A stretch of DNA of 64,000 nucleotides from Naegleria gruberi. Lineage: Eukaryota. Position 1 is the first letter of the stretch; every line of letters starts with the position of its first letter. The DNA lies in NCBI GenBank assembly GCA_000004985.1, contig GG738848.1. The stretch is one strand, 5' to 3'. The translations under genes and the position numbers were made by a program. Shown one piece after another: positions 35,820-59,612 of this stretch. The notes under the pieces are model-generated. The model was not told the DNA's origin. It ran no database searches and was given only the letters and a program-made list of their open reading frames with translations.

Positions 35820-38800
35820 ATGATGGACTCCACCACAACAATGAATGGAAGTGATGAAGGTAGTACAATAACAATGAATGGAACAATCCATCATCATCAA
35901 AATACCAATGGTATTACTTCTTCATCAACACTAGCAGCAACTAGTAGTGATAATAACAATCATGATACATTAACAAGCACTCTGAATGATGATGCTATTA
36001 TTGAATCCACTCCAATCAAACAAGAAAGCTTTGATGAAAACTTGATGAAACAAAATTCAACAACGAGGCAACTATTGACAAAACCATTGTCTCTGGTTGA
36101 TTATGAATACTTACTCAAATTGGAGACTGACCTTTCCAATCAAGAAGATAACCATCTAGATGAAGGATATTTAAAGGATGCTGCAGAAGATTACGACAAA
36201 TTGGGAGATTACTGTACAAGTTATTTTGAATCGAATAGTTTAGATTTGGAGGTACAAAAACAGTTAATAGCAGAGAATTCAATCGAAACTCTGACAGTAG
36301 AAGAATCTAAAACTTTGGAATCCAAGACAATTTCAAAAACCCTTGAGGAAACATTCAATAGTATTTGTGATGAATATCTTGATATTAATGTGTATGAAGA
36401 GATTTTATCTCAACAATACGAGGAGCAAAATGAAAAGAAGAGAAAGCCATGTGATGGTGTTGCCATTCATACTTGGAAGAATACATTAATAAGAGCAAAT
36501 CAACCAACCTTGTTGGTTTCTTCATCCATGAGAAAAAAGAAGAGAACAAAAAGGGATGAACAAGATAGAGGCAACTTTGAAGTTGCATTCACTGTTCCAA
36601 TGAATGGTTTCAATATTAATAAGGTGGTTGAAAATTTCCAGAATTGCATCAGTTCACACCATCATTTTATAGACAAGGCCACCAATTTGAGAAGTAAGAA
36701 GAGTTGGATTGAAAATATGAATCAAGAACAAACAGAAATCAAAACACAAGTTGAACAATTTTCTAAAGCTCTCATTCATGAAAAGTTGAACGAAACGTTG
36801 AACTCTCAAAAGAGTCACGATACTAGAGCAACAAATGGAACTTCAAAGCCATCTGTAAATATCAAACACTCCAAATTACATCAAATATCCAAAGATGTGG
36901 CTCAAAAGGTAAAGGAAAAACAAACCAAATCAGTAACAGAGCTGGATAATACTGTGGGAGGTATTTCATCTGTACTTTCTGATAGAATGAACTCTTTTTG
37001 GAAGAAACACGAAAAGGAAATATCAGAAAAGAGAAAGAGAAAAAAGAAGGAAGAGGAAGAGAAGGAGGAAGCTGTAAGACAACAAAGAAAGTTAAACTTT
37101 CTCCTCTCTCAAACAGAACTCTACTCTCACTTTATGTCCAAAAAATCAATCACAAGTGCTGTCACTTCTGATGATTCAACAGAAGAGAATGCAGCTCAAT
37201 CAGCTCTTCAGGCATCACAAAGACAAAAGCAATTCACTGAAGATTTTGATAAGGAAATTGAAAAGTACAGAACACAATCATCAATGGAGGATGAAAATAT
37301 AATTGAAGCAGGTGACGAGACCATGCAAGAGCCAAATATTTTCAATGGCTCACTTAAAAAGTACCAGTTGAAGGGTATGAAATGGTTGGTATCTTTGTAC
37401 GAGCAAGGTATCAATGGTATTTTAGCAGAGTAAGTATATTTAACATTGCACTCCTTACTAAGACTAATATTACAATTCTTTATTTTAATGAAAATTTTAA
37501 TAGTGAAATGGGTTTAGGTAAAACAATTCAAACCATTGCATTTATGGCCTATCTGGCTGAAAAGAAGAGTATTTGGGGACCAACCCTTATCATTACTCCT
37601 TCATCTACACTTCACAATTGGCAACAAGAATTTGAAAAATTCTGTCCAACACTTCGAGTATTACCATACTGGGGAGCATTGAAGGAGAGAAAATTGCTCA
37701 GAAAGTACTGGACCAATCCAGATAAGCTCTATCAAAAAGACTCACCATTCCATGTTGTTGTTTCCAGTTATGGTTTAATATTGGAAGATGAAAAGTATTT
37801 CAAAAAAGTCAAGTGGCAATATTTAATTCTAGACGAAGCCCATGCCATTAAATCGAGTAAGAGTTTGAGATGGAAAACACTGTTGAGCATGAAATGTAGA
37901 AATAGAATGCTTTTAACAGGTACTCCTATTCAAAATAACATGAAAGAGTTGTGGGCCTTGCTTCACTTTATCATGCCTTCAATATTCGATTCTCATGACG
38001 AGTTTAATGATTGGTTTTCGAAAGATATTGAATCTCATGCAACAAAGGAACAAGACACCAAACTTAACGAGCAACAATTGGCCAGATTACACATGATTCT
38101 CAAACCTTTCATGTTGAGAAGAGTCAAGAAGGATGTTGAAAGTGAAATGGCACCAAAAACTGAGGTTGTCCTCTCGTGTGGGTTGAGTTCTCTGCAGGGA
38201 GAAACTTACTACCGTATTAAGGACGATTTCAAAAAATCCTCCAAAGATAAGAAGAAGAAGATTGCTGTTGATTCAACAAGCAAGTCAGCACTGATGAATA
38301 TTGTAATGCAACTGAGAAAGGCATGTAACCATACTCATTTATTCAAAGAGTTTAGACAAGACACACTCTCTCCATTCCCATTCACCACGCCAATATCATT
38401 CTTGAAGCACATTCCAGGAAAAATTTATGATGAGTGTGAAAGATTGACCAATCCTATTCAATTCCACCTTCCTAAATTAATTTTTAGGGAGCTGACACCA
38501 CAAGGATCTCTAGAAATGGAATCTAACAGTTTGATGATTTCAAAGAGATTTGACTTTGTTCATGACATTTCATACATGATAGATACGTTTGGAACACTTC
38601 GTTACTTTTTCAAAGATAATTTTTGGAGATTGTACAAACTTAGAAATTTAAAGAATAGAATAGTCGAGTTCAGAGATAGAAAGGGTGGTTTTCAATTTTT
38701 AATGGATGAGTTACTAAGTGAACAATTGAACAACCACCTCGAGAGATGTAATTATCTTATTCAAAATATTGAAATTTTCTACAAATCCAATAGAGATCTC

Positions 38801-39610
38801 CTCAAGAAACTTGGCGAGTGTTGCATTGAAAAAGTTATTGCACCACCAATAGAAGTCAAATGTTCTGATAGAGGTTGTGATTATCAAATGACACCCATTA
38901 AGACTAGGTTCTTTAATAAGAAGTTCTTGTACAATAATCAATTTATTTATGATACCTTTAACACTTCCAGAATATCATTACCGAGTGTTAGCAAACTTAT
39001 TGCCGATTCTGGAAAACTCAAAGTTTTGGATCAATTACTTTCGAAATTGAAACAAGAAGGACATAGAGTTTTAATTTTCTGTCAAATGACAAAAATGATG
39101 GACCTTTTAGAAGAGTACATGTACAAGAGAAGATATACATTCTTTAGATTGGATGGTTCAACAGGAATTTCAGAAAGAAGAGACATGGTAGATGCCTTCC
39201 AAAATCAACGAGTGGATCCAGTTTTTGCATTCCTTCTCTCCACAAAAGCTGGAGGTCTAGGTATTACCTTAACAGCAGCAGATACAGTCATTTTCTATGA
39301 CAGTGATTGGAATCCAACATTGGATGCTCAAGCCATGGATCGTGTCCACAGAATTGGTCAAACTAAGCCAGTTACAATCTATCGTTTAATTACTAAAAAC
39401 TCTGTGGAAGAGAGAATCCTTGCCATTGCCAAGCAAAAGAGTACCATTCAAGAGACAGTCTACAAGGGTCAATTCAAAATGCAAGACAGCAATGAAGAAG
39501 AAGCAGCTGATGAACTTCTCGAAGATGAGGATGCAGTTGAGGCAGCAGTCGTAGTCGATGATGCAGGAGATTTGGATGAGAAGGAAATCATGTCCCTCAT
39601 TCTAGATTAA
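35820..39610 (+). CDS. ino80: INO80-type SNF2-family chromatin-remodelling ATPase, 2 exons
   Basis: Exons are 35820..37429 and 37504..39610, joined at ...INGILA-D-EMGLGKTIQ. The DBINO/HSA signature is RKLNFLLSQTELYSHFM. SNF2 N-lobe motifs are LKGMKWL, DEMGLGKT, LILDEAHAIKS and LLLTGTPIQNNMKELW. A long insertion of about 270 aa between the lobes is typical of INO80/SWR1. Helicase C-lobe motifs are RVLIFCQMTKMMD, FLLSTKAGGLGITL and DSDWNPTLDAQAMDRVHRIGQ. Confidence 0.9.
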
Positions 39611-43445: not shown

Positions 43446-46142
43446 TTAGGTCTTTTTCTTCTTCTTTACACCACCAGCATCAAATTGAATGAATTGTAAT
43501 TCATACCTAGGAATTCTGAAATGCATAAATGGCATTCCAGCATTAGCAGCTTTGTTATTTGTTGAATTGTTATTTTGGTTTCGTTTTCTCTTCTTTTCCA
43601 CTGGTTGAGTAGTAGTGGTAAGAGGAGGTGTTACAGATTTGGTTTCTGATTTGACATTCGTATCAGTAATGTTATCAACTTGTCCTGAGGCAACTATACT
43701 ACTGCTACTACCAAAATTGGACATTGGTTGTGCATTCATACTCACAAAAGATGAGGTCAAATTGGAATTAACATCATTATTTTGAACATAGTTCCAGAGT
43801 GGATCAATATTTGGTCCTACAAGGGAGTTGGCAATGTCATTATTAACTGAGAGTAAGGAGTGTGGTTGTTCATCAGGATTGACAAGATCGAAATTGAAAT
43901 CTCCATCATCAAAAAGAAGAGCAAATGAATCATCAACAGAAATTGACATTCTATGTGACGCCTTTCTAGCCATAGTGACTGGAGCAACGGATTTTCTTCT
44001 GTATGAGGAAGGTTGTAAGAGAATTGAGGTTTTGTGAATATTCTCAATTTCATCCAATTTTTGTTCTTGGACGAAAATAGAGAGCAAGTCACAAACAAAG
44101 CTCAAAATTTGTTCATCTCGCTCACTAAAGTTACCTGTATGCTTGTTCAAAACTTCTAAAACTCCTACAAATTGGTTTCCACTTCCAACTATTGGAGAAC
44201 AAATAACACTCTTTGTTGAAAATCCTGTTGTTTTGTCCACTTCTGGTGCAAATTTAGAATTACTCCTCACATCAGGTATATTCACACTCTTTCCACTTTG
44301 GAAGCATGATCCTGCAATCCCTCTGTCAGAAGGAATTCTAATTTCATCTTCGCCAATTGCAACTTGTGAAATGAGCTCGTCTGTTTGTCTATCGTACATG
44401 AATAATGTTGTTCTTTCTGCATGTAACATTCTGGTAATACATGAGATTATGTGTTGGAAGAAAACTCCAACCGAGTGCAAGTCCTGTCTTAGAACAGATA
44501 AACGTCTATAGACACAACCCTTCTCTGTTGTTGACTCTCCAATTTTAACATGGTTTTCTTTCTTTTGGGTATTGTTGTTATCTCCTCCATTTTCAGCACT
44601 ATTTTCAACAACTGGAGTTGTTGATGAGGATGCAACCTTTTCTTGAGGCTCAATTCTAAAGAATGAAGGATACATATCCATAGCATACCTGGTTGGGAAG
44701 GCAGCTGGTGGAGTATTCTCTTCACCCCACAATTCAAAGGTTTGGGTCAATTCGTGTCTGTCCTTTTCTTCTGTATTGGAGGTTGTTTCTGGGTCACTGC
44801 TGGATACTTCTTTTTGAGGTGGGAATTTGTAGGTGTTAAGAGTTTCTTCGTCCTTTTTAGGTGGTGGGAATGTAAAGGCAGTAAGGGATTGATAAATATC
44901 ACCCTTTGGAGTGCCATTAGCAGAACCATTTGTACTATTTGGTGTTGAAGGTTGAGAAGTGGAAGTAGCGGATGGTGGCAGCATTGAGCCCATCATTTGT
45001 TGTTGACTTTGAATTGCTCTTGAAATAATATCAGGATTGCTGGAAATGTTGATATTATTGTAGAGATCTAGCATTTTTAGAACTTGTTCATATTTAGACT
45101 TGGCAAAAAGTAAGCAATGTTCTGCAACAACTGCTGTTCCGTATTGTTGAGCTTTGGCCCATTGTTGAAAAACGTTATCCACAGAAAGAGTTCCAATAAT
45201 AAATTCTTGGCATTGACTGAGAAGTGCACTCAGCTGATAGAATTTAGCTGCTTGATAAAGATCCCAAATCTTGTCAGATCTTAGAATGGTACAGTCAGTA
45301 TAAACAAATTCCAAAATATTATAGAAAATATCAGCAGATGCATCTTGAATCTCAATTTCCAAAATGGATGTATTGGAACATTTGACGAGAATTAGTTGAT
45401 TGAAATAATTACTCCTAGCACATAAAATTAATTTGTGAGCATAAAACTTCTTTCCTTGAATAATAAACGTCACATCACTTAAAATTGGATTATTAAAGAA
45501 TTGTTTGATGCTTGATCCCATGGTGTTACTCTTACTAATAAATGTTTGAGCTGTGGACTCTGTTATGGAACTTTGCCCCAATCCAGCCTGTCCTGCATTG
45601 TTAGTGGAACTAGAGGATGTAGAAACTGGTGATTGTGTAGGTTGTTGTATCTGCAAGATGCTTGAAGAGTTGGGAGAAATTTGTTGCAAGTTATTGTTAT
45701 TTGAAAGTTGATTTACGACCATATTCGAAAATTGATTATTCATGGGTGGTGAGGATACTTGGATTACTTGTTGATTTGAATTTTGTTGATTTAACAATTG
45801 TTGTAGCATGTTTTGTTGTTGATTTGTATTGTTTTGTTGTTGGTTTTGTTGAATAAGATTCATCAGGTTGTTGAAAATACCCATTGCTTGCTGATTATTA
45901 TTGTTAGAGGGTGATGGTTGGTTGTTTTGCATTTGTTGTTGTTGTTGGAAGAGATTGATTATACTATTCATGTTGTTATTACTATTACTATTGTTCTTCA
46001 TCATGTTGAGAAGCGAATTGATCTCATTCATTGAATTATTACCATTATTATTATTGTTGTTATTGTTGCCATTGTTATTATTCATCATCATAACTAGAGC
46101 ATTCAATAACTGTCCCGAATTTGCCTGATTATTCGGTAACAT
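43446..46142 (-). CDS. BTB/POZ + GAF domain protein with a long poly-N/Q N-terminus (898 aa)
   Basis: The N-terminal ~200 aa are N/Q-rich ([25 protein letters not shown]). The BTB domain is LSDVTFIIQGKKFYAHKLILCARSNYFNQLIL...DIFYNILEFVYTDC. The GAF domain is FMYDRQTDELISQVAIGEDEIRIPSDRGIAGSCFQSGKSVNIPDV...VICSPIVGSGNQFVGVLEVLNK. Confidence 0.7.
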   Translation of the reverse strand: MLPNNQANSGQLLNALVMMMNNNNGNNNNNNNNGNNSMNEINSLLNMMKNNSNSNNNMNSIINLFQQQQQMQNNQPSPSNNNNQQAMGIFNNLMNLIQQNQQQNNTNQQQNMLQQLLNQQNSNQQVIQVSSPPMNNQFSNMVVNQLSNNNNLQQISPNSSSILQIQQPTQSPVSTSSSSTNNAGQAGLGQSSITESTAQTFISKSNTMGSSIKQFFNNPILSDVTFIIQGKKFYAHKLILCARSNYFNQLILVKCSNTSILEIEIQDASADIFYNILEFVYTDCTILRSDKIWDLYQAAKFYQLSALLSQCQEFIIGTLSVDNVFQQWAKAQQYGTAVVAEHCLLFAKSKYEQVLKMLDLYNNINISSNPDIISRAIQSQQQMMGSMLPPSATSTSQPSTPNSTNGSANGTPKGDIYQSLTAFTFPPPKKDEETLNTYKFPPQKEVSSSDPETTSNTEEKDRHELTQTFELWGEENTPPAAFPTRYAMDMYPSFFRIEPQEKVASSSTTPVVENSAENGGDNNNTQKKENHVKIGESTTEKGCVYRRLSVLRQDLHSVGVFFQHIISCITRMLHAERTTLFMYDRQTDELISQVAIGEDEIRIPSDRGIAGSCFQSGKSVNIPDVRSNSKFAPEVDKTTGFSTKSVICSPIVGSGNQFVGVLEVLNKHTGNFSERDEQILSFVCDLLSIFVQEQKLDEIENIHKTSILLQPSSYRRKSVAPVTMARKASHRMSISVDDSFALLFDDGDFNFDLVNPDEQPHSLLSVNNDIANSLVGPNIDPLWNYVQNNDVNSNLTSSFVSMNAQPMSNFGSSSSIVASGQVDNITDTNVKSETKSVTPPLTTTTQPVEKKRKRNQNNNSTNNKAANAGMPFMHFRIPRYELQFIQFDAGGVKKKKKT

Positions 46143-49914: not shown

Positions 49915-52900
49915 TTAGAAGCCCATCAAGTGTGAACCGTTTCTATCACCTCTAAAGTTAGCTCGAAAATATCTGTCTATAGCATCTGAATTCCAACCAC
50001 CCATGGCCTTGATGGTAGCATCAGGGATACCCATAATGGCAGCCTCCGTGGCTCCACCAATTCTCAACGAATGAGAAGAGTACTTTCCTGGATCAGCTTC
50101 GATCCATGTTGCAACCTGAGTTAAGATGTAAGAAATCTCAACTGTATTTAAAGAAAAACCACCGGTAAACAAAAACTTTCCTTTGTCTCTTGAATCAAGT
50201 AATTTTTGAAGCCATTTCATCGGACACAATTCAGAACCTGTCGCTTCGATACATGATTTTCTTCCTTTCTTATCATTCTTCACTTTTCTCACTGTTATAC
50301 TAAACCCCACCACCGGGAACTTCACAATCTTTAGATCCTCTATTAATAAACCACCCAATTCTGAACCCCTAAACATTGACCTTATACCAAAAATCATTAG
50401 GCACGTGTATAGAACATATGATTTTTCTTTAACAAACTGTCTACCAACAATTACCCATTTACAAATAAATTCTATTCTCCATGGATCTCTTTCTCTCTTT
50501 GTCGCCACTGTAGCCAGATTGCACATACCCTTTATCACCATCTGTACTCTAATGTTTACTGTAATATCCTCCCAACCAATCCTTTTACAAAAATGCTTAA
50601 TAGCATACATTGCACTTCGACAGTTATTACCAGATGGTGTTTTGATGAACATAAAGGTGAGAAATCTGACTACCATTTCACTAGTTGCTGGTGGAACCTC
50701 TTTTTGCTTAATAAGAAAGTTGATAAATCTATTCCAATAACTTTCATAGTTGTCTGTTGTGGATATTTCAATTGAACATGACATTAATGTATCTGCAATC
50801 TTACTCAAATCGTGACTCTGCAGTCTACTAATGTTGCTCTTATGGTCCAAAATCCTTTGCATGGTTCTAGGTTCCCTCCTTGGGAGGCTCTGAAATGATT
50901 TCCATCTAGATTCATAAAACGAATTTGATAACTTTCTATTATCTTCCACCACCACCTCTTTTTCCATACTGGATGAACCAATACCATAACTGCTTTGGAC
51001 TCTAGACAATGTTGTAATACTCTCCCTATTAGATTGAAAGGTACGCAGCACCAATTTACCACTGGCTCTGTCCAAAGGTGAGAGAATGAATCTGCTTTCT
51101 CTCTTCTGCTGGTCTTCTTTCTCACTGTATATGGTTTTGTCTTGAAGTTGTAATGAGAGGCGAATCTGTCCCATCCTATTGATACATCCAGCTGCTTCTC
51201 TACTAATTGAAAAGCTTCTTTGGTAATCTCCCAATCTGTTGGGTCTTTCTCTTGAATATTTCTGCTCAGATTGTCCGCTACTTGATTCTCCTCCGAAGGT
51301 AACCATTCTAACGAAAGCAAACGGATGTCGTGTTCGAAAATAATGCGCCATATTAGTTGAATCAATTGATTCATAATGGGAGACTTTGCTCTTCCCTTCA
51401 TTATACAATATAGAGCCACCTTTGAATCCGTGTAAACAATTAAATTCTTTCCTTTCAAAAGATGTGACCATTCTTTTAGGGCAAGATAGATCGCTCTCAC
51501 TTCTAATACATTGATATGTTCTTGGCATTGTTCTCCCTTCCAAAAACCTTGTAGTTTCAAATTTCTTTCTTTGTGGAAAACTCCCCATCCCAATCTCGAT
51601 GCATCTGTCCAAAAGTATTCCACTAAGCTTGGATATTGGAACACCTTTCCATTCCAATGGTCCAAGTTGTATAAAATCCATTGGAGATTGAAAATTACAT
51701 CTCGGTCTCTGATGCGAAATTCGGAATCCCAGCCTCCAATATTCACCTAGTCCACCACTAAAGAATAAATCGGATTCAACATCACCCTTGCAGGTTGGAA
51801 ACAGTCTACATAAGCAATTATAATACCAGTCATCCGAAACAGTTCTCTGGATGTTACTTTCTGATCTTGGTGATACTTGGCAAGGGCTATGGAAATACGA
51901 GTTCGAATTTTCTCTAATGTAGCTTCTGTCATAATTAATTTCCTGCTGACCAGATCTATCTTGATCCCAAGTAGTTGAAAGACTTTTAATGGAGTTAACT
52001 GACTCTTCTTCTTTTCGATAACTACACCTAATTCTGCACATACCATTGTAACGAATGTATTGTTCCTTAATGCAGATAAATAGGAACCAAAATGTAATAA
52101 ACCAACATCGTCTAAGTAATTGGATGGTGTTAAAGAATCTGATCTCAAAAAATTGATAAATACATTCATCATTTGTGTAAAAAAGTATGGAGATCCATTC
52201 CATCCAAATGGAAGGACTGTGAATTGCAAAACCTCTTCCTCTACTTGAATGGCAAAGTATGGTCTGTCCTTCCTTTTTACCTTCATCTGGTGATATCCGG
52301 ATTTCATATCGAACATAGAACCCCAAATTTGATCTGTCTTGTTCATTGGTACGTGTTCTAAAAACTTCTTCAACGTGTTGTACTTGAATTTGGGGATAGA
52401 ACAAAACCGATTGAGCGGTCTTAAATCGATAATCAGTCGGTATGATTCTTTCTTTGGGACCAGCCGATACTTGGCTATCACTTTTGGATTGTGACAAGGT
52501 TCCAAAGCTCCAATCTCTTTCAAAATACTCACTTCTCTTTTTAACCATTCTCTCTCTTCCAAAGACCATTCTTCTAAATTTACCTTTCCATAGTATGGAA
52601 CAAATTCTTCGTTTGTTTGAACTGATACACCCTCTTTCAACATATCCACTATTTCCATTGAAGCTCCTTTCTTCCTCCAGGTATCCCATTTGTTCGAAAT
52701 GGAATGAATAGCCTCTCTTCTTTCTTCTACCTCTCGGAAAAAACAAATCATCTACATACTCTGAACCCTCTCTTTTATTTCTCTTAGGGCAATCTTTGAT
52801 CAGATGGTTTGGGTCATTACAAATAAAGCATTTCTTCACTTTCTTCATACCATTAGCACTACCAAACATATTCACCTTTTCCTCTGCCTTATCTTTCTTA

Positions 52901-53754
52901 TCATAAATCTTGGCATTTGCATAGGATTTAACAAAACTTGTCTTACCCTTCTCCTTATGGTCGAACTTGAGTAGTTTTTCTGCCATCTTAAGCTTATCCA
53001 TGTTCTCACGCCATAATGGATTGCTTTCTATAAACGCCAATTTAGATGCTAATTCTGGATTGACGGCTTGAACTTGTAATTGGAAAGCTCTTGTCTCTAA
53101 GTTCGCAACCATTTTCTTCGTATCATCTATTTCTGGGAAAAGATTAGCTATCTTCATTGTAAAAGCAGAATCCTTTCTCAAATTCTCATATTCTGTAAGA
53201 AGACTAGAATTAGTTGTTGGCAATGGTGTGTAGATTGTATCTGTGTATTTTCTAACTTCAGATTCAGCTGCCAATTGTTGTAAAACACGTTCTGTTTCAG
53301 CTTTTTCCAGCTTCATCTGTGCAATCTTAGCATCGATTATTTGTTCATAAGCCTTAAATCTCTTCACATCTTCTTCTGATACCTCTTCTCTCTTTCTCTT
53401 GTTAGAGCCATCTTCAACTTCTACAACTGACTCACCATCGTCCTCTTCGTCATCATCATCGTCATCATCATCTCTTGCTTCCTTGAATGCATGTTTAATC
53501 TCATCCTTTAACTTCTCTACATCTTTACTCTTGCCACTTGTGCAAACCGTAAACTTGTCTGCACCAATAAAGTCAACAATTGCCTTTGCCAATACCTTCT
53601 TTTGGCCAGAAACTTCAATTTCCAAGGTACCTATAATCTTTTGTATCAAGGCCTTTGTTAACTTTCCAACAGCACTTTTATCATGCTTCTTAAGTATGTC
53701 AGTGATGGTTTCTTGAATTGTTGATTGACTCATAATGTGTTGCAATTTTTTCAA
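49915..53754 (-). CDS. Retroelement long ORF (1279 aa): gag (N-terminal ~335 aa) ... overprinted linker ... tyrosine recombinase (C-terminal ~300-400 aa)
   Basis: One continuous frame. The N-terminus MSQSTIQETITDILKKH has a poly-Asp tract and a CCHC knuckle. The C-terminus has the tyrosine-recombinase R..HxxR..Y motifs. The central ~600 codons overlap the RT/RNase H frame and show no domain of their own. Confidence 0.75.
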   Translation of the reverse strand: MKKLQHIMSQSTIQETITDILKKHDKSAVGKLTKALIQKIIGTLEIEVSGQKKVLAKAIVDFIGADKFTVCTSGKSKDVEKLKDEIKHAFKEARDDDDDDDDEEDDGESVVEVEDGSNKRKREEVSEEDVKRFKAYEQIIDAKIAQMKLEKAETERVLQQLAAESEVRKYTDTIYTPLPTTNSSLLTEYENLRKDSAFTMKIANLFPEIDDTKKMVANLETRAFQLQVQAVNPELASKLAFIESNPLWRENMDKLKMAEKLLKFDHKEKGKTSFVKSYANAKIYDKKDKAEEKVNMFGSANGMKKVKKCFICNDPNHLIKDCPKRNKREGSEYVDDLFFPRGRRKKRGYSFHFEQMGYLEEERSFNGNSGYVERGCISSNKRRICSILWKGKFRRMVFGRERMVKKRSEYFERDWSFGTLSQSKSDSQVSAGPKERIIPTDYRFKTAQSVLFYPQIQVQHVEEVFRTRTNEQDRSNLGFYVRYEIRISPDEGKKEGQTILCHSSRGRGFAIHSPSIWMEWISILFYTNDECIYQFFEIRFFNTIQLLRRCWFITFWFLFICIKEQYIRYNGMCRIRCSYRKEEESVNSIKSLSTTWDQDRSGQQEINYDRSYIRENSNSYFHSPCQVSPRSESNIQRTVSDDWYYNCLCRLFPTCKGDVESDLFFSGGLGEYWRLGFRISHQRPRCNFQSPMDFIQLGPLEWKGVPISKLSGILLDRCIEIGMGSFPQRKKFETTRFLEGRTMPRTYQCIRSESDLSCPKRMVTSFERKEFNCLHGFKGGSILYNEGKSKVSHYESIDSTNMAHYFRTRHPFAFVRMVTFGGESSSGQSEQKYSRERPNRLGDYQRSFSISREAAGCINRMGQIRLSLQLQDKTIYSEKEDQQKRESRFILSPLDRASGKLVLRTFQSNRESITTLSRVQSSYGIGSSSMEKEVVVEDNRKLSNSFYESRWKSFQSLPRREPRTMQRILDHKSNISRLQSHDLSKIADTLMSCSIEISTTDNYESYWNRFINFLIKQKEVPPATSEMVVRFLTFMFIKTPSGNNCRSAMYAIKHFCKRIGWEDITVNIRVQMVIKGMCNLATVATKRERDPWRIEFICKWVIVGRQFVKEKSYVLYTCLMIFGIRSMFRGSELGGLLIEDLKIVKFPVVGFSITVRKVKNDKKGRKSCIEATGSELCPMKWLQKLLDSRDKGKFLFTGGFSLNTVEISYILTQVATWIEADPGKYSSHSLRIGGATEAAIMGIPDATIKAMGGWNSDAIDRYFRANFRGDRNGSHLMGF
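50805..51746 (-). CDS. Retroelement RNase H (+ downstream domain) ORF, same frame as RT, separated from it by one TAG
   Basis: FWTDASRLGWGVF...LEVRAIYLALKEW...LIVYTDSKVALYCI are RNase H motifs. There is no ATG; it is listed with a GTG start. Confidence 0.75.
   Translation of the reverse strand: MNIGGWDSEFRIRDRDVIFNLQWILYNLDHWNGKVFQYPSLVEYFWTDASRLGWGVFHKERNLKLQGFWKGEQCQEHINVLEVRAIYLALKEWSHLLKGKNLIVYTDSKVALYCIMKGRAKSPIMNQLIQLIWRIIFEHDIRLLSLEWLPSEENQVADNLSRNIQEKDPTDWEITKEAFQLVEKQLDVSIGWDRFASHYNFKTKPYTVRKKTSRREKADSFSHLWTEPVVNWCCVPFNLIGRVLQHCLESKAVMVLVHPVWKKRWWWKIIESYQIRFMNLDGNHFRASQGGNLEPCKGFWTIRATLVDCRVTI
51747..52751 (-). CDS. Retroelement reverse transcriptase ORF, in the +1 frame relative to gag
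   Basis: LIIDLRPLNRF, KSGYHQMKV, LPFGWNGSPYFF and YLDDVGLL are RT motifs 1-5. The ORF ends with TAG at 51747..51749. Confidence 0.8.
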   Translation of the reverse strand: MICFFREVEERREAIHSISNKWDTWRKKGASMEIVDMLKEGVSVQTNEEFVPYYGKVNLEEWSLEEREWLKREVSILKEIGALEPCHNPKVIAKYRLVPKKESYRLIIDLRPLNRFCSIPKFKYNTLKKFLEHVPMNKTDQIWGSMFDMKSGYHQMKVKRKDRPYFAIQVEEEVLQFTVLPFGWNGSPYFFTQMMNVFINFLRSDSLTPSNYLDDVGLLHFGSYLSALRNNTFVTMVCAELGVVIEKKKSQLTPLKVFQLLGIKIDLVSRKLIMTEATLEKIRTRISIALAKYHQDQKVTSRELFRMTGIIIAYVDCFQPARVMLNPIYSLVVD

Positions 53755-53940: not shown

Positions 53941-55639
53941 TTACTTTTGAGAAACCATATTCTTTGCAATGAGGAGGGATACATTCTTTGCTGAGATTAG
54001 GTTAGTTTCCATAGTACTGACAACACTTTCAACACTATTCGTATAGTAAATATTATTGTGGAGTTTGACAGGAGGTTGAATATTATTTGGTTTGAGAATT
54101 GGATAACTTCCATGTTTCCAAACTTGTTGAACTACTGATGTGGCTCCAACAAACATTTCCTGTAATGTTTTGGTTGAAAGTGGCTCATGACTATACGATT
54201 CGAATATTCTTTCTGATTCATCAGGTGTCTTTCCAATAGGTGCAATATTATTGAGTGGTAGATATTTGGTCAAAAGTGGTTTCATTGTTGTAATATACAC
54301 ATCTGATTCAGAGCAATCAGTTCCAAAATAATTCTTGTTCAAGTCCTTTGCACGAATAATGCTAGTAATCAGAATATTCATATCACGTTTTTGTAAGGCA
54401 GATGGAGGAAGTTTGATATTTTCAAATTTGATATTTGTAAACTCGAGTGGAGTTGCAACAATTACATAATCAAATTGACCGAGTTCAGAATTGTTTCCAC
54501 TCTTGAGAGAATACTTGTTTGATGCTGGATCGAATGAAATTTCAGAAACTTCACTATTCAACTTTAAGGTCAATCGATCTTTTGGAATTGATTCAATGCA
54601 ACCAAGTGGAACTTTTGAGGTTCCTTCAAGAACATGTCTAAAATCAGAAACTGCTCCAGCTAATCCAATAATTCCTCCATAGGCACTGATTTGATCAGAG
54701 TTTTGCATATAATTGATTCTCAAAATTGGATCACAATATTCCTTGATAAAACGTTCTTGAATCCAATTATTTCTTGCATATTCATAGAAAGTCAATTTGG
54801 TCAAATCACTCATTCCAGTATCTTGACAAAAATCTTCAGTACTTTCCCATGTATAGACCTTACTCAATGTTTCTGCATTTAATGGACCAGTCGATGGCAA
54901 TTCTTGGAGTTTGTAAATATTTAAAAATCTCTCCTTTGACAAGTAGTAATTAACACTTCTCTTCAATAAGAAGAGAGGAATACCAAAATCATATCTCCAT
55001 GCTCCTCTAATTGCAGTCTTCCACCAACTGTCAGATTCACAAAATACCATTCTCTTTTCGTCACCATTAAATATACCAATTCTGACATTAAAATGAGGTT
55101 CTTCCAATGTCAAATTAAACTTTTCAATCAAGCCCAAAATGTACTTGTTTTCCAAAATGACAGATGATCCACCCACTTCATATGAATACTTTGAATTTTG
55201 TCAATTAATTTTGATTCTGAAACATTAATTATAATAAACAAACCTTGTATGGATCCTTCTCATCCTGATACAAGACCATTTCCTTCAAACGACCTCCAAC
55301 TCGATCATCCCTCTCATAAACCACCAATTCAATTTCTCTCTTCATTTCTTGAGAATTGGAATTTGGCTCTGGTGAAGAAGAAGAGGAATCATTTTCTCTT
55401 CTATTCATCTCATCAACCAATTCGGAGAGAAAGTAGGCAGAGCCAGAACCAGAAATTCCACTGCCAATAATTGCAACTCTCTTATTGATCATTGAATTAT
55501 TAGCAACCTTTGGTGTTTCAGCTTGAATGGTTGTTGTAGGAAGGATCATGGAGTTTTTAGTGTGAGAAAAGTAGTTAGATCCGATCAAGCCAACTGAACC
55601 AACAGACAAAGTGGCAGCAACTAGACGTTTTAAAGACAT
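53941..55639 (-). CDS. Prenylcysteine oxidase (PCYOX1-like FAD flavoprotein), 2 exons, with a signal peptide
   Basis: Exons are about 55229..55639 and 53941..55187, with a phase-0 junction ...DEKDPYK|YSYEVGGSSVIL. Collinear with PCYOX1. The FAD motif is VAIIGSGISGSGSAYFL, followed by ELVVYERDDRVGGRL. Further matches are YEVGGS, DPILRINYMQNSDQISAYGGIIGLAGA and YVIVATPLEF. Confidence 0.8.
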
Positions 55640-57167: not shown

Positions 57168-59612
57168 TTATAGATCTGCAAAGTTCATTCTCTTTTCACA
57201 ATTTTTCTTCAAATGGATAGCAACTTTGTCACTTGCATTATTTTGTAAATATTTTGAAAGTAAGGTGGCAGCATTGTTGAAATTCTCATTGAAATATTCT
57301 TGAGTTGCTTCATTGTAAATATTCCATTGTTCATTCTTCTCCTTTGCATTCAATTCATACATCCATTCATCAGCTTCATTATTAATACTTTCACCCAATT
57401 CGTAAACTTTTCTTGGTGCGTGAATTTGACTTTTATCTGCAATGTTTGGATATGAATAATAATCATCCAACACAAAATTCTTAAAATCAACAAATCTAAC
57501 TTGAAACTTGTTGTCAATTTTCTGGAATAATTCATGAGAAATAACTATTGGAATATCCAACTCTTTTGCAGTTTCAATCATGCCTTGAATATTGTATTGA
57601 ACACTTCCAAAAACACCAAAGTTCATAATCTCCTTTGTTCCCACATTACCACACATACATTCTTGAGTTGTTGCAACAATATGGAAATCCAAATTCAATG
57701 TCGGATTATTCTCATAAACAATATGCTGTGATAGCTTATTTTCCTGTAAAGTTATCAATTTTTTCAATAAGGAATGACAACATTGAAGACCCTTCATTTC
57801 ATGTTTATGTTGATCACCTGAAGCATTGAAGAGAATTGTAACTGTTTCATTTTCAAATTTACCAACTTGTCCATTACTAATCTTTGCTACATAGTTAATA
57901 ACATCAAAAACATCTGTCAAAATGGAAAGACACTCTTTTGGATTGGCATTGTTGAACAAAATATTGACACCGTCCAAAAAGGCACTAACAGCAGTAACTC
58001 TCTTCTTTTCCAAATATAGAGAGAACATGTTGACGACAGAACTTTGTTGTTTGAGTAATTTTCTTGAAAGAATGCCTGAATGAGAGTTAGTATTAGAATT
58101 TGAAAACGAGGATGAGTCTTTGTGCTTTTCTTGCAAAGGTGTTTCTTCAACTTTCTCAACTTCTCCATCTTCTGAATTGTTGTTGTCCAACTTACTCAAC
58201 AAGTGACCTGGAATAAATTTTCTGTACAATCTAATTCTTTCTACCATACCTATAAAGTGAACTTGCAAGGATTTCACTTCAGAGAGTAAAGACCTAGACA
58301 AACGAAAATTATCCAGTTCCATATTCGAAACCAATTCAAATGAGTCTATTAAATTTTGGAATGGCTTAACAACCATAATAGAAAACACAGTTGTCATAGT
58401 TAATCCAAATATAACTACCACAACAGACCCAACAATTGCACAAACAATAGCAAAAATCATATTACCAATATAATTCCATTTTGGGACGCTGTACACTAAT
58501 ATCCAATCAATACCTTCATCAATACACATTCTTCGAACTGATACATAAGTGTCATCAATTATAACTGTAACATTGGTGTTACAAGCAAGATTTTGAAAAT
58601 CATTATTGAATTGTAAAGCTATTTGATCTCCAAATTTGGTGACACCACCCCCATGGGTTGAGAATGTCTTTCGAGTGGAATCTCTTTCTGTGAACACGTC
58701 TTCTAGAAAACCTGAAGCAATCATGTTTTTTGATTGTGTTTCAAATACAAACCCAACAGTTCCTGTAATATTGACTGTTTGTTTGTAAAGGAACTCTGAT
58801 AAAACATCAAGATTCATAACTATTGTTACAAAATCATTGATTTTACCATAGGATGATATGCTACTGGTACAAGCAATATTCAACTGATTAGAGTTTGTTG
58901 AAGCAACAAATGATGGAGAGAAAATAGTCTTCCCTGGATTCCTTGTAGCTGTCTGAGAAAGGAATGTGTAATCAGTTGAGTTGACCACCCTATCAGGTTT
59001 TGTTTGATGGATACAAACATCGTTATGCTCTGGGTCTATACAATTCCAATAGCTTTGATTCTGTCCCTGATTCACTGCTGTGTACATTACTGATGTTTCG
59101 TCAACCGTAATTCCATACATGTTACCACTAGCATCACCAATCGAGAGCATGTTCAGAAAATCAATGTGAGATTTAATAACTTTCTGCAATCTAAATGTTC
59201 GATCCATTATGAGAGTTTGATTAGTGAAATCAAAATTAGGGTCGAGTTGTGATTTTGTGGATTCTGTTGCCAATACCACATTCTTAATAGAAGTCTCTGT
59301 GTAGGAAATAATGACATCAAATTCTGATTTTCTCACCTTCTCACTCAATGTACCAACCTCTGAACTGAATGCTGTTATCCATATCGAGTCAAACACGACT
59401 GTACATGACAATATCAAGAGAAATATAATAAAGACAAGAATAAATTTGATGGAAGAAAAAAAGCTTAAAACCCTCGAACGACTCTGAATCGTTTTCCTTG
59501 GTGCCTCAGCTGGTGAAGCGTTTTGGTCTGAATTTTTGCCTGGAACCTTTTCCTGTAGTTTTTGCTCACTATTAGGCTTTGAAGAGGTAACAAGTGGTTG
59601 AATACGAGTCAT
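57168..59612 (-). CDS. Receptor-type class III nucleotidyl cyclase homolog (ACG-like topology)
   Basis: 814-aa single ORF with two TM helices flanking an extracellular sensor region of about 310 aa. The C-terminal region is collinear with class III cyclase catalytic domains. VTAVSAFLDGVN corresponds to VTvlFaDIvGFT, GKFENETVTILFN to KtIGDaym, and CGNVGTKEIMNFGVFGSVQYNIQGMIETAK to the G..G....dytvfGd.VN.AaR motif. Several catalytic residues are substituted. Confidence 0.5.
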   Translation of the reverse strand: MTRIQPLVTSSKPNSEQKLQEKVPGKNSDQNASPAEAPRKTIQSRSRVLSFFSSIKFILVFIIFLLILSCTVVFDSIWITAFSSEVGTLSEKVRKSEFDVIISYTETSIKNVVLATESTKSQLDPNFDFTNQTLIMDRTFRLQKVIKSHIDFLNMLSIGDASGNMYGITVDETSVMYTAVNQGQNQSYWNCIDPEHNDVCIHQTKPDRVVNSTDYTFLSQTATRNPGKTIFSPSFVASTNSNQLNIACTSSISSYGKINDFVTIVMNLDVLSEFLYKQTVNITGTVGFVFETQSKNMIASGFLEDVFTERDSTRKTFSTHGGGVTKFGDQIALQFNNDFQNLACNTNVTVIIDDTYVSVRRMCIDEGIDWILVYSVPKWNYIGNMIFAIVCAIVGSVVVVIFGLTMTTVFSIMVVKPFQNLIDSFELVSNMELDNFRLSRSLLSEVKSLQVHFIGMVERIRLYRKFIPGHLLSKLDNNNSEDGEVEKVEETPLQEKHKDSSSFSNSNTNSHSGILSRKLLKQQSSVVNMFSLYLEKKRVTAVSAFLDGVNILFNNANPKECLSILTDVFDVINYVAKISNGQVGKFENETVTILFNASGDQHKHEMKGLQCCHSLLKKLITLQENKLSQHIVYENNPTLNLDFHIVATTQECMCGNVGTKEIMNFGVFGSVQYNIQGMIETAKELDIPIVISHELFQKIDNKFQVRFVDFKNFVLDDYYSYPNIADKSQIHAPRKVYELGESINNEADEWMYELNAKEKNEQWNIYNEATQEYFNENFNNAATLLSKYLQNNASDKVAIHLKKNCEKRMNFADL

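What the first reader, a model, noticed from the sequence alone, without database searches (positions are those of the whole stretch)
57168..59612. ACG-like receptor cyclase homolog with substituted catalytic residues
The topology is two TM helices around an extracellular sensor of about 310 aa, with a cytoplasmic class III cyclase-homology domain. This resembles osmosensing or germination adenylyl cyclases, but key positions differ from the catalytic consensus. The N/R transition-state residues appear as NIQGM rather than N..AAR, and the second metal-binding Asp is unclear. It may be a pseudo-cyclase, a regulatory partner, or a highly divergent active enzyme.
Basis: partly seen in the sequence, partly recalled or inferred. 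Interest (0 to 1): 0.5.

Follow-up and report, generated by a model that had tools for sequence, protein, structure and literature searches.

The report
Naegleria dCache receptor with dead cyclase
This single-exon Naegleria gruberi gene encodes a membrane receptor with a bacterial-type double-Cache sensor outside the cell and, inside, a domain that has the cyclase fold but lacks residues needed to make cAMP or cGMP; it belongs to a large, apparently undescribed family in Naegleria-type amoebae that shares these losses, so part of the "hundred cyclases" credited to Naegleria are probably not cyclases.

Summary
Window 57168-59612 (-) is an intact 814-aa ORF in Naegleria gruberi NEG-M. It has two hydrophobic spans around a ~306-aa ectodomain and a C-terminal class III cyclase-homology domain (CHD). 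The CHD is supported by a family HMM match to CyaB (E=5e-24) and by Foldseek against 3R5G (TM 0.85).

Catalytic positions are degenerate:
- Metal Asp-1 is F545.
- Metal Asp-2 is E589.
- The specificity Thr/Asp is G666.
- The transition-state Arg is M678 or G677, depending on alignment register.
- K585 is kept.
- Asn is kept (N674) in only one register.

This is a family trait, not decay. Of 120 related sequences, 118 lack Asp-1 and none has Arg at the 678 position.

- The ectodomain is a dCache fold, not an ACG-type osmosensor.
- Every family member carries a disordered insertion of at least 35 aa between the transducer helix and the CHD.
- A family-specific DEWMYEL motif precedes a TPR-like tail.

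Named members are all Heterolobosea. The best reading is a receptor pseudo-cyclase with non-catalytic output. It is a new variant of a known kind, of moderate interest.

The parts
57168..59612 (-). Complete single-exon CDS of 814 aa plus TAA stop (57168-57170). It is a dCache receptor with a degenerate cyclase-homology domain.
   Evidence: ORF list. In-frame stop six codons upstream of the ATG. Collinear with N. gruberi paralogs P0002 and P0003 from Met1 to the end. The exact product is not on record in the protein collection.
59460..59612 (-). N-terminal cytoplasmic segment, residues 1-51. It is disordered and net basic.
   Evidence: AF2 pLDDT below 50 for residues 1-50. 9 K+R against 4 D+E. 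Lowest conservation among the paralogs, 0.12-0.28 identity.
59385..59459 (-). Transmembrane helix 1, about residues 52-76.
   Evidence: Hydropathy peak of 2.9. Helical in the AF2 model.
58467..59384 (-). Extracellular double-Cache (dCache) sensor domain, residues 77-382.
   Evidence: Ectodomain AF2 model has pLDDT 88 and pTM 0.85. The 50 best Foldseek PDB matches are all dCache ligand-binding domains, including TlpQ 6FU4, TlpC 5WBF, PctD 7PRQ and Tlp3 4XMR, with E from 1e-9 to 1e-6. Pfam dCache_1 is only E=0.035, below the cut-off. The family profile hits bacterial dCache histidine kinases at E=9e-24.
58371..58466 (-). Transmembrane helix 2, about residues 383-414.
   Evidence: Hydropathy peak of 3.0. 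It forms a continuous helix 378-429 in the model.
58230..58370 (-). HAMP-like helix-connector-helix, residues 415-461.
   Evidence: AF2 places a helix to 429, a loop at 430-443 and a helix at 444-466. It is among the most conserved regions: 0.60-0.63 identity among paralogs, with P417 and E445 near-invariant. No Pfam HAMP hit. The full-length model matches a dCache chemoreceptor model, 9A69_B, over 420 columns.
58182..58229 (-). Cyclase-transducer-element-like helix, residues 462-477 (LYRKFIPGHLLSKLDN).
   Evidence: P468 is invariant, and F466, H470 and L472 are near-invariant. It aligns with the 'YVP..L' segment of canonical relatives P0158, P0160 and P0162. The CTE concept is taken from PMC5995499.
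58032..58181 (-). Low-complexity, Ser/Asn-rich disordered insertion, residues 478-527. This is a family hallmark.
   Evidence: pLDDT below 50 for residues 474-528. The Pro-to-Thr(beta1) distance is 72 here and 59-116 (median 73) in 112 family members, against 24 in all three canonical relatives. Least conserved region.
57387..58031 (-). Degenerate class III cyclase-homology domain, residues 528-742.
   Evidence: Family HMM against CyaB at 5e-24. hhalign probability 99.2%. Foldseek 3R5G at E=2e-11, TM 0.85. pLDDT about 90.
57978..57980 (-). F545, at the position of metal-binding Asp-1.
   Evidence: Aligned to the Asp of 'FSDIRGFT' in CyaB and 'FTDICNFT' in P0158. The paralogs have Cys and Tyr. 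In the family the position is K21, R19, Y17, H14 and others, with Asp in only 2 of 120.
57843..57860 (-). K585-FENET590. K585 is at the substrate-specifying Lys position and E589 is at the metal Asp-2 position.
   Evidence: Aligned to 'DKFVGD' of CyaB. E587 and E589 are invariant in the three closest sequences. In the family, position 589 is D37, S18, N17, E13 and position 585 is S42, N21, K8.
57636..57653 (-). CGNVGT, residues 654-659, the conserved beta-strand motif shared with CyaB and Cya2 (GNxG).
   Evidence: G655 is present in 120 of 120, N656 in 110 of 120 and G658 in 116 of 120. These are invariant in alignment A4.
57615..57617 (-). G666, at the second substrate-specifying position (Thr in CyaB and P0158).
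   Evidence: Alignments. In the family the position is T54, S26.
57579..57593 (-). NIQGM, residues 674-678, the helix that carries the transition-state Asn and Arg in active cyclases.
   Evidence: The phmmer register gives N674 for Asn and M678 for Arg. The hhalign and family-HMM register gives Y673 for Asn and G677 for Arg. There is no Arg or Lys in either register. In the family, position 678 is L63, M32, I11.
57351..57371 (-). DEWMYEL motif, residues 748-754. It is family-specific.
   Evidence: E749 and W750 are near-invariant. The motif is absent from the tails of canonical relatives P0158, P0160 and P0162.
57171..57386 (-). C-terminal helical, TPR-like tail, residues 743-814.
   Evidence: AF2 predicts four helices at 750-813 with pLDDT 89-95. 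Relatives give weak TPR Pfam hits. A comparable tail is present in canonical relatives.

Best explanation
The gene encodes a type of receptor pseudo-cyclase.

Shown:
- It is a two-pass membrane protein.
- The extracellular part is a double-Cache ligand-binding fold.
- The cytoplasmic part runs HAMP-like helices, then a transducer-like helix, then a ~50-aa disordered linker, then a class III cyclase-fold domain, then a DEWMYEL motif and a TPR-like tail.
- The cyclase-fold domain lacks metal Asp-1 (Phe), has Glu for metal Asp-2, has Gly for the specificity Thr/Asp, and has no transition-state Arg.
- The same losses, the linker insertion and the DEWMYEL motif are shared by a large family. Its named members are all Heterolobosea.

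Inferred:
- The protein cannot synthesise cAMP or cGMP as a homodimer. It also cannot supply a complete half-site to a partner.
- The family descends from a bacterial-type dCache class III cyclase that was duplicated many times after losing catalysis.
- Ligand binding to the dCache domain is relayed through TM2 and the HAMP-like helices to a still-dimeric cyclase-fold module.
- The output of that module is non-catalytic. The most likely output is regulated protein-protein contact through the conserved DEWMYEL/TPR tail. Nucleotide binding without turnover, or the Ser-rich linker acting as a regulatory (for example phosphorylation) region, may also contribute.
For: Fold and homology.

Catalytic map of the window protein against CyaB, Cya2 and the intact relatives P0158, P0160 and P0162 (all of which carry D / K..GD / T / N...R).

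Family-wide degeneracy:
- The Asp-1 position is K, R, Y, H, L, T or F, with Asp in only 2 of 120.
- Position 678 is always hydrophobic.

Evidence that the gene is not decaying:
- The ORF is intact.
- There are 21 synonymous against 13 non-synonymous differences to a 98% identical environmental copy.
- The CHD (0.38-0.47 identity) and tail (0.37-0.44) are at least as conserved as the ectodomain (0.34-0.37) among paralogs.
- New family-invariant residues appear: N596 replaces the canonical Gly of 'FGAP', and G655, N656, G658, R706, E749 and W750 are conserved.

The insertion of at least 35 aa between the transducer helix and beta1 is present in 112 of 112 members, against a fixed spacing of 24 in canonical relatives. 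It is predicted to be disordered.

dCache fold.

Family size: 113 representatives at E<=1e-30 and 494 at E<=1e-10.

Named members are only Naegleria, Willaertia and Percolomonas.
Against: - No activity assay exists, and unusual class III cyclases with non-canonical substrate residues are known.
- Glu at Asp-2 and the conserved E587 could in principle bind metal.
- K585, and in one register N674, are retained in this particular protein.
- The Asn/Arg register is not resolved: phmmer and hhalign disagree by one residue.
- The output mechanism (tail-mediated interaction) is pure inference. No partner was identified, and no dimer model could be made.
- The environmental copy carries a 2-bp deletion inside the CHD. 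If real, it would hint at relaxed constraint.
Confidence: 0.65

Rival explanations
1. Regulatory heterodimer partner. The degenerate CHD pairs with the CHD of one of Naegleria's many catalytically intact cyclases. It tunes or silences that enzyme, either as a dominant-negative or as an allosteric subunit. This would be analogous to the one-functional-site arrangement of mammalian AC C1/C2 or sGC alpha/beta.
For: The dimer-forming core motifs of the CHD are conserved: GNxG, F665 and G669. Naegleria genomes encode many cyclases (PMC9928731). K585 and possibly N674 are the 'C2-type' residues that this protein still has.
Against: In a heterodimer both composite sites would be defective. The site using this protein's C2-type residues lacks Arg (and Thr/Asp), and the other site lacks Asp-1. 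dCache, TM and HAMP-like modules normally homodimerise. No cyclase gene lies nearby. The neighbour named 'adenylate/guanylate cyclase' is a BTB-GAF protein with no CHD. The disordered insertion loosens coupling to the CHD.
Confidence: 0.2
2. Highly divergent but active cyclase, or another nucleotidyl-transferase. It would use alternative residues for metal binding and transition-state stabilisation, for example E587/E589 on the beta2-beta3 hairpin.
For: E587 and E589 are invariant in the three closest paralogs. K585 and the GNxG strand are retained. The overall fold is intact with high model confidence.
Against: Asp-1 is a bulky Phe here and Cys or Tyr in the paralogs, so there is no conserved replacement. 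No basic residue sits at the Arg position in either register. E587 and E589 are not conserved across the wider family, where they are S, N or G. From established knowledge of class III cyclases, loss of either metal Asp abolishes activity.
Confidence: 0.08
3. Non-functional relic: a duplicated cyclase gene on its way to becoming a pseudogene.
For: The exact product is absent from the deposited N. gruberi protein set. The 98% identical environmental copy has a 2-bp deletion at codon 653.
Against: The 2445-nt ORF is uninterrupted. Substitutions are biased to synonymous, 21:13. New motifs are conserved across more than 100 representatives that share the same losses. AF2 models of both domains are confident.
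Confidence: 0.04

Closest known systems
Bacterial-type sensor-linked class III cyclases: P. aeruginosa CyaB (PDB 3R5G), Synechocystis Cya2 (2W01, CHASE2-TM-CTE-CHD), and the environmental dCache_1+PF00211 protein P0158
   Same: The CHD fold matches (TM 0.85 to 3R5G). The GNxG strand is shared, as are the 'YxP..L' transducer helix and a TPR-like C-terminal tail. P0158 has the same dCache-TM-linker-CHD order.
   Different: All of these keep D / K..GD / T(G) / N...R and a fixed 24-aa spacing from the transducer Pro to beta1. The window protein has F / K..NE / G / (N or Y)...(M or G), a 72-aa spacing with a disordered insert, and an extra DEWMYEL motif.
   Same: The gross topology matches: two TM helices flank an extracellular sensor and are followed by a cytoplasmic CHD. 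This is from established knowledge; Saran and Schaap 2004 is cited in PMC9928731.
   Different: ACG is an active adenylyl cyclase, whereas this protein lacks catalytic residues. The sensor here is a dCache fold. No ACG sequence was compared directly, so no specific relationship is shown.
Degenerate half-sites of heterodimeric class III cyclases (mammalian tmAC C1/C2, soluble guanylyl cyclase alpha/beta)
   Same: Both are cyclase-fold domains in which canonical catalytic residues are replaced while the fold and dimerisation are kept (established knowledge). sGC and AC structures are among the fold matches.
   Different: In those enzymes each subunit still supplies one complete set (Asp pair, or Lys/Asp/Asn/Arg), so one site stays active. 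This protein supplies neither complete set.
dCache chemoreceptor and sensor-kinase ligand-binding domains (TlpQ, TlpC, PctA/B/C/D, Tlp3, Mlp24)
   Same: The ectodomain fold matches (Foldseek E 1e-9 to 1e-6, TM up to 0.68). So does its placement between two TM helices followed by a HAMP-like unit.
   Different: About 10-14% sequence identity, below Pfam's dCache_1 cut-off. It is eukaryotic and has N-glycosylation sequons and conserved Cys. The output module is a dead cyclase fold instead of an MCP or kinase module.

Membership tests
Class III nucleotidyl cyclase catalytic domain (CHD; Pfam PF00211) | Cyclase (palm-like beta-alpha-alpha-beta-beta-alpha-beta) fold | tested here: met
   AF2 pLDDT is about 90 over residues 532-742. 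Foldseek gives 3R5G at E=2e-11, TM 0.85, rmsd 2.6 A. 2W01, 1WC0, OaPAC/bPAC, Rv1625c and sGC also match.
Class III nucleotidyl cyclase catalytic domain (CHD; Pfam PF00211) | Sequence match to the curated family model above its gathering score | tested here: not met
   The window protein and P0002/P0003 have no PF00211 hit at E<10. Homology is nevertheless secure: 11 of 30 relatives hit PF00211 (best 2.5e-10), the family HMM matches CyaB at 5e-24, and hhalign gives 99.2%.
Class III nucleotidyl cyclase catalytic domain (CHD; Pfam PF00211) | Two metal-coordinating Asp residues (beta1, and the 'GD' of the beta2-beta3 hairpin) | tested here: not met
   These positions are F545 and E589. The paralogs have C/Y and E/E. 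In the family, Asp-1 is present in 2 of 120.
Class III nucleotidyl cyclase catalytic domain (CHD; Pfam PF00211) | Substrate-specifying pair (Lys plus Asp/Thr for ATP; Glu plus Cys/Gly etc. for GTP) | tested here: inconclusive
   K585 is present and the second position is G666. This combination is not assignable to AC or GC. In the family the Lys position is mostly Ser or Asn.
Class III nucleotidyl cyclase catalytic domain (CHD; Pfam PF00211) | Transition-state Asn and Arg on helix alpha4 (N-x-x-x-R) | tested here: not met
   The Arg position is M678 in the phmmer register or G677 in the hhalign/HMM register. Asn is kept only in the first register (N674). In the family, position 678 is L, M, I or V in 110 of 120.
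Class III nucleotidyl cyclase catalytic domain (CHD; Pfam PF00211) | Cyclase activity (NTP to cNMP plus PPi) | not testable with these tools
   Requires expression and an enzyme assay.
Double Cache sensor (dCache_1, PF02743) | Long N-terminal stalk helix plus two tandem PAS-like alpha/beta modules, located extracytoplasmically between two TM helices | tested here: met
   The ectodomain model (pLDDT 88, pTM 0.85) has helix 2-51 followed by two beta-sheet modules. The 50 best PDB fold matches are all dCache domains. The two TM segments were found.
Double Cache sensor (dCache_1, PF02743) | Sequence match above Pfam's gathering score | tested here: not met
   dCache_1 scores E=0.035 and 14 bits against a cut-off of 45. 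Three relatives hit MCP-like_PDC_1 at 6.6e-5. The family profile hits bacterial dCache kinases at E=9e-24.
HAMP domain (PF00672) | About 50-aa helix-connector-helix directly after the last TM helix, with a sequence-model match | tested here: inconclusive
   The predicted secondary structure fits: helix to 429, loop 430-443, helix 444-466. A conserved Pro (P417) and Glu (E445) are present. There is no Pfam HAMP hit in the protein or in 30 relatives.
Cyclase transducer element (CTE) coupling | Short conserved helix immediately N-terminal to the CHD, at fixed distance from beta1 | tested here: not met
   The helix and motif (LYRKFIPGHLL) are present and highly conserved. The distance to beta1 is 72 aa here and 59-116 aa in the family, against 24 aa in P0158, P0160 and P0162. 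The insert is predicted to be disordered. CTE definition from PMC5995499.
Dictyostelium ACG-type osmosensing cyclase | Two-TM receptor topology with an intracellular CHD | tested here: met
Dictyostelium ACG-type osmosensing cyclase | Specific sequence relationship to ACG, and an active, osmolarity-stimulated adenylyl cyclase | not tested
The catalytic residues required for any active cyclase are missing.

The most novel reading that the evidence does not exclude
The gene is one member of an undescribed, lineage-expanded class of eukaryotic dCache receptors found in Heterolobosea and in unassigned environmental protists.

In this class a horizontally acquired bacterial-type cyclase domain has been converted into a non-catalytic signalling module. 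The module has its own hallmarks:
- Systematic loss of metal Asp-1 and of the transition-state Arg.
- A disordered insertion of at least 35 aa that uncouples the transducer helix from the domain.
- A new DEWMYEL motif ahead of a TPR-like tail.

If so, a sizeable share of the roughly 80-108 'cyclases' credited to Naegleria are pseudo-enzymes that signal by protein-protein contact. The dCache sensor would also be far more common in Naegleria than the single instance reported from Pfam-based surveys.
Probability: 0.5. Interest if true: 0.6.

Novelty: new variant of a known kind. Interest (0 to 1): 0.45.

Why it matters
**Cyclase counts.** Naegleria is repeatedly cited for an exceptional repertoire of membrane cyclases, 'at least 81' in the pangenome study (PMC9928731). 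Annotation pipelines label relatives of this protein 'class 3 adenylate cyclase' or 'Guanylate cyclase domain-containing'. If a large branch of them cannot make cyclic nucleotides, those counts, and inferences about cAMP/cGMP-based environmental sensing in these amoebae (including the pathogen N. fowleri's relatives), need revising.

**A natural pseudo-enzyme experiment.** The family shows what a sensor-HAMP-cyclase module does once catalysis is lost. Its conserved new motifs could guide a search for partners.

**dCache in eukaryotes.** The result shows that divergent dCache sensors are widespread in a eukaryote where only one had been recognised (PMC4822843).

**Unrecorded gene.** The gene's product is not in the searched protein collection, even though seven other window ORFs match deposited N. 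gruberi proteins exactly.

Tried and rejected
- **Direct family scans.** Pfam and NCBIfam scans of the protein returned nothing useful: only a spurious DUF2706 hit in TM1.
- **Word-indexed homologue searches.** Three runs found only two paralogs, one fragment and a few distant proteins. The exhaustive profile search was needed to see the family.
- **PDB sequence search of the ectodomain.** The profile search gave no meaningful hit. The dCache assignment rests on fold comparison.
- **AFDB fold library.** It was not available. I therefore could not rank full-length relatives such as ACG by structure.
- **Nearby gene as a partner.** The gene at 43446-46142 is named 'adenylate/guanylate cyclase' by its source. 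I rejected it as a catalytic partner because it has BTB plus a cNMP-type GAF domain and no cyclase domain.
- **Asn/Arg register.** I tried to settle it with a second method. phmmer and hhalign differ by one residue. The conclusion that Arg is absent holds in both registers.
- **Pseudogene reading.** Rejected on the intact ORF, the synonymous-biased divergence and the family-wide conservation.
- **Exact-sequence look-up.** It found no record of the product.
Full report
**What is at the coordinates.** Window 57168-59612 on the minus strand is an uninterrupted 814-codon ORF. It begins at the first ATG after an in-frame TAA six codons upstream and ends in TAA. Seven of eight other intact ORFs from the window are exact matches to Naegleria gruberi NEG-M proteins on one 712,659-bp scaffold, so the window is N. 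gruberi. The 814-aa product itself is not on record. Three homologue searches returned only a 98% identical, 654-aa environmental fragment (P0001) and two N. gruberi paralogs. These are P0002 (821 aa, 39% identity) and P0003 (861 aa, 37%), both 'predicted protein' with no Pfam domain. The paralogs align from Met1 (MTRIxP) to the C-terminus, so this is a complete single-exon gene that seems to be missing from the protein set held in the collection. P0001 lies on a metagenome contig with the same upstream GNAT gene.

**Checking the observation.** Only two hydrophobic segments stand out, at about residues 52-76 and 383-414. They enclose about 306 residues carrying five N-x-S/T sequons and five cysteines, and the N-terminus is net basic. 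This confirms the stated topology.

The C-terminal region is homologous to class III cyclases. The signal is weak for the single sequence: phmmer against PDB gives 2W01 at E=3.8e-4 and 3R5G at 7.8e-3. Pfam PF00211 gives no hit even at E<10. The signal becomes decisive with profiles and structure:
- A three-sequence profile gives E=4e-7.
- A 109-sequence family HMM gives CyaB 5e-24 and Cya2 2e-23.
- hhalign gives 99.2% probability.
- 11 of 30 relatives reach PF00211 on their own.
- The AlphaFold2 model (pLDDT about 90 in the domain) superposes on CyaB 3R5G with TM 0.85 and rmsd 2.6 A. All other leading matches are class III cyclases.

**Catalytic residues.** I mapped the protein against CyaB, Cya2 and three catalytically intact relatives recovered here. 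The relatives are P0158 (dCache_1+PF00211), P0160 (a dinoflagellate AC) and P0162 (CHASE2+PF00211). All carry D / K..GD / T or G / N...R. The window protein maps as follows:

| Canonical role | Window protein | Two close paralogs |
|---|---|---|
| Metal Asp-1 | F545 | C, Y |
| Substrate Lys | K585 | K, Q |
| Metal Asp-2 | E589 (in FENET) | E, E |
| Second specificity residue | G666 | S, S |
| Asn / Arg, phmmer register | N674 / M678 | not tabulated |
| Asn / Arg, family-HMM and hhalign register | Y673 / G677 | not tabulated |

The phmmer register has a one-residue gap. The family-HMM and hhalign register is ungapped. I could not resolve the register because model coordinates are not exposed. 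In neither register is there an Arg or Lys. It missed that the first metal Asp is gone.

**This is a family property.** An exhaustive profile search of 1.84 billion representatives found 2683 proteins at E<=1e-3, 494 at E<=1e-10 and 113 at E<=1e-30. I analysed the 120 sequences among the 150 best that cover the domain:
- The Asp-1 position is K21, R19, Y17, H14, L9, T8, F6 and others, with Asp in only two.
- Position 678 is L63, M32, I11, V4 and never Arg.
- The Asp-2 position is D37, S18, N17, E13.
- The Lys position is S42, N21, K8.

Other positions are strongly conserved. G655 is present in 120 of 120, N656 in 110 of 120 and G658 in 116 of 120. N596 is present in 103 of 120, replacing the canonical Gly of 'FGAP'. 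R706 is present in 109 of 120, and E749 and W750 are near-invariant.

Named members come only from N. gruberi, N. lovaniensis, Willaertia magna and Percolomonas cosmopolitus. The rest are unassigned environmental sequences, some with an N-terminal ankyrin-repeat extension. Sources label them 'class 3 adenylate cyclase' or 'Guanylate cyclase domain-containing protein'.

**The rest of the protein.** An ectodomain-only model (pLDDT 88, pTM 0.85) matches only double-Cache ligand-binding domains in its 50 best PDB hits. These include TlpQ, TlpC, PctA-D, Tlp3, Mlp24 and sensor kinases, with E from 1e-9 to 1e-6. At the sequence level Pfam dCache_1 is below threshold (E=0.035). However, the family profile hits bacterial dCache kinases at E=9e-24.

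After TM2 the model shows a helix-loop-helix of HAMP-like layout and then a short helix, LYRKFIPGHLL. This stretch is the best-conserved part of the protein, at 0.60-0.82 identity among paralogs. It corresponds to the 'YVP..L' cyclase-transducer segment of the intact relatives (CTE concept from PMC5995499).

In the three intact relatives the distance from that Pro to the Thr/Ser of strand beta1 is 24 residues. In all 112 family members that could be measured it is 59-116 residues (median 73), and 72 here. The extra segment (478-527) is Ser/Asn-rich, unconserved and predicted to be disordered.

After the CHD come a family-specific DEWMYEL motif and four confidently predicted helices (750-813). 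Relatives give weak TPR hits there. The intact relatives also have a TPR-like tail but not DEWMYEL.

**Is it alive?** Against the environmental copy there are 34 substitutions in 2181 nt, 21 synonymous and 13 non-synonymous. Because non-synonymous sites outnumber synonymous ones by roughly 3:1, this indicates purifying selection. Among the three paralogs the CHD (0.38-0.47 identity) and the tail (0.37-0.44) are at least as conserved as the sensor (0.34-0.37). The environmental contig has a 2-bp deletion at codon 653. I cannot tell whether this is an assembly error or a real lesion.

**Interpretation.** The evidence best fits a receptor pseudo-cyclase. A homodimer would have no metal site. A heterodimer with an intact cyclase would have two defective composite sites, one without Arg and Thr/Asp and one without Asp-1. 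Catalysis is therefore very unlikely in any arrangement.

The family most plausibly arose from a bacterial-type dCache-CHD cyclase. Cache domains in eukaryotes have been attributed to horizontal transfer, and a single 'bacterial-type adenylate cyclase' with Cache was noted in Naegleria (PMC4822843). That ancestor would have lost catalysis and then expanded.

The mechanism I propose is inferred, not shown. Ligand binding at dCache is transmitted by TM2 and the HAMP-like helices to a still-dimeric cyclase-fold module. The module's read-out is protein-protein interaction through the DEWMYEL/TPR tail. The Ser-rich linker may act as a regulatory region, and the former active-site cleft may act as a nucleotide-binding pocket.

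The rivals are a modulatory heterodimer partner of intact cyclases (about 0.2), a cryptically active enzyme (about 0.08) and a decaying gene (about 0.04).

**Comparison with known systems.** It works like, and descends from, sensor-linked class III cyclases such as CyaB, Cya2 and P0158. It fails their defining catalytic features. It also fails the fixed transducer spacing, so I do not file it as a cyclase. The ACG analogy is topological only. It differs from the degenerate half-sites of mammalian AC or sGC, where each subunit still contributes one complete residue set.

I found no paper describing this family or pseudo-cyclases in Heterolobosea, but the searchable library is incomplete.

Noticed in passing
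window 57168-59612 (-): The 814-aa product is not in the protein collection, although seven other window ORFs are exact matches to deposited N. gruberi NEG-M proteins. The gene appears unannotated or differently modelled in the deposited proteome.
   Followed up: partly
window 43446-46142 (-): This 898-aa protein (EFC49330.1) is named 'adenylate/guanylate cyclase' by its source. It contains only BTB (213-317) and a cNMP-type GAF domain (560-691), with no cyclase domain. The GAF domain matches the CyaB2 GAF tandem 1YKD at E=1.7e-27 and the PDE2/5/6 GAFs. The name is probably transferred from the GAF match. A BTB-GAF protein could be a cyclic-nucleotide-sensing CUL3 adaptor.
   Followed up: partly
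L001 3278 (equivalent to window codon 653, about 57654): The 98% identical environmental copy (ENA ERZ929261 contig) has a 2-bp deletion just before the CGNVG motif, which splits the gene into two called ORFs. It may be an assembly error or a real frameshift.
   Followed up: partly
window 49915-53754 (-): A 1279-aa ORF has a CCHC zinc knuckle and a tyrosine-recombinase (Phage_integrase) domain. This suggests a DIRS- or Ngaro-like retroelement about 3.4 kb downstream of the target's neighbours. Nested ORFs lie at 50805-51746 and 51747-52751.
   Followed up: no
window 53941-55176 and 55229-55639 (-): Two adjacent ORFs look like two exons of one prenylcysteine lyase/oxidase gene. One carries an N-terminal FAD/NAD-binding GxGxxG segment and the other the Prenylcys_lyase domain (E=2e-52). 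They are separated by a short intron.
   Followed up: no
family-wide (P0004-P0151); window 58467-59384: Pfam-based surveys reported Cache in a single Naegleria protein (PMC4822843). This family's ectodomains are dCache folds that fall below Pfam thresholds, so dCache is much more common in Naegleria than recorded. Three relatives have swapped the sensor for a NIT domain (best E=1.1e-30).
   Followed up: partly
P0065, P0071, P0077, P0093 and others (1150-1300 aa, environmental): A distant branch of the same degenerate-CHD family carries a ~400-aa N-terminal extension that JGI annotates as ankyrin repeats. Its source organisms are unknown.
   Followed up: no
P0136 (Willaertia magna, 905 aa): This is one of only two family members with Asp at the Asp-1 position. 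It also has Asp at Asp-2 and Arg at position 677, so it may be a near-canonical, possibly active, relative that marks the transition.
   Followed up: no
window 22046-24169 (+), 35820-39610 (+), 14304-16058 (+): Ordinary eukaryotic neighbours are present: a fused trehalose-6-phosphate synthase/phosphatase, an INO80-type SNF2 ATPase split over two ORFs (DBINO plus SNF2/helicase), and a subtilase. None is related to the finding.
   Followed up: no
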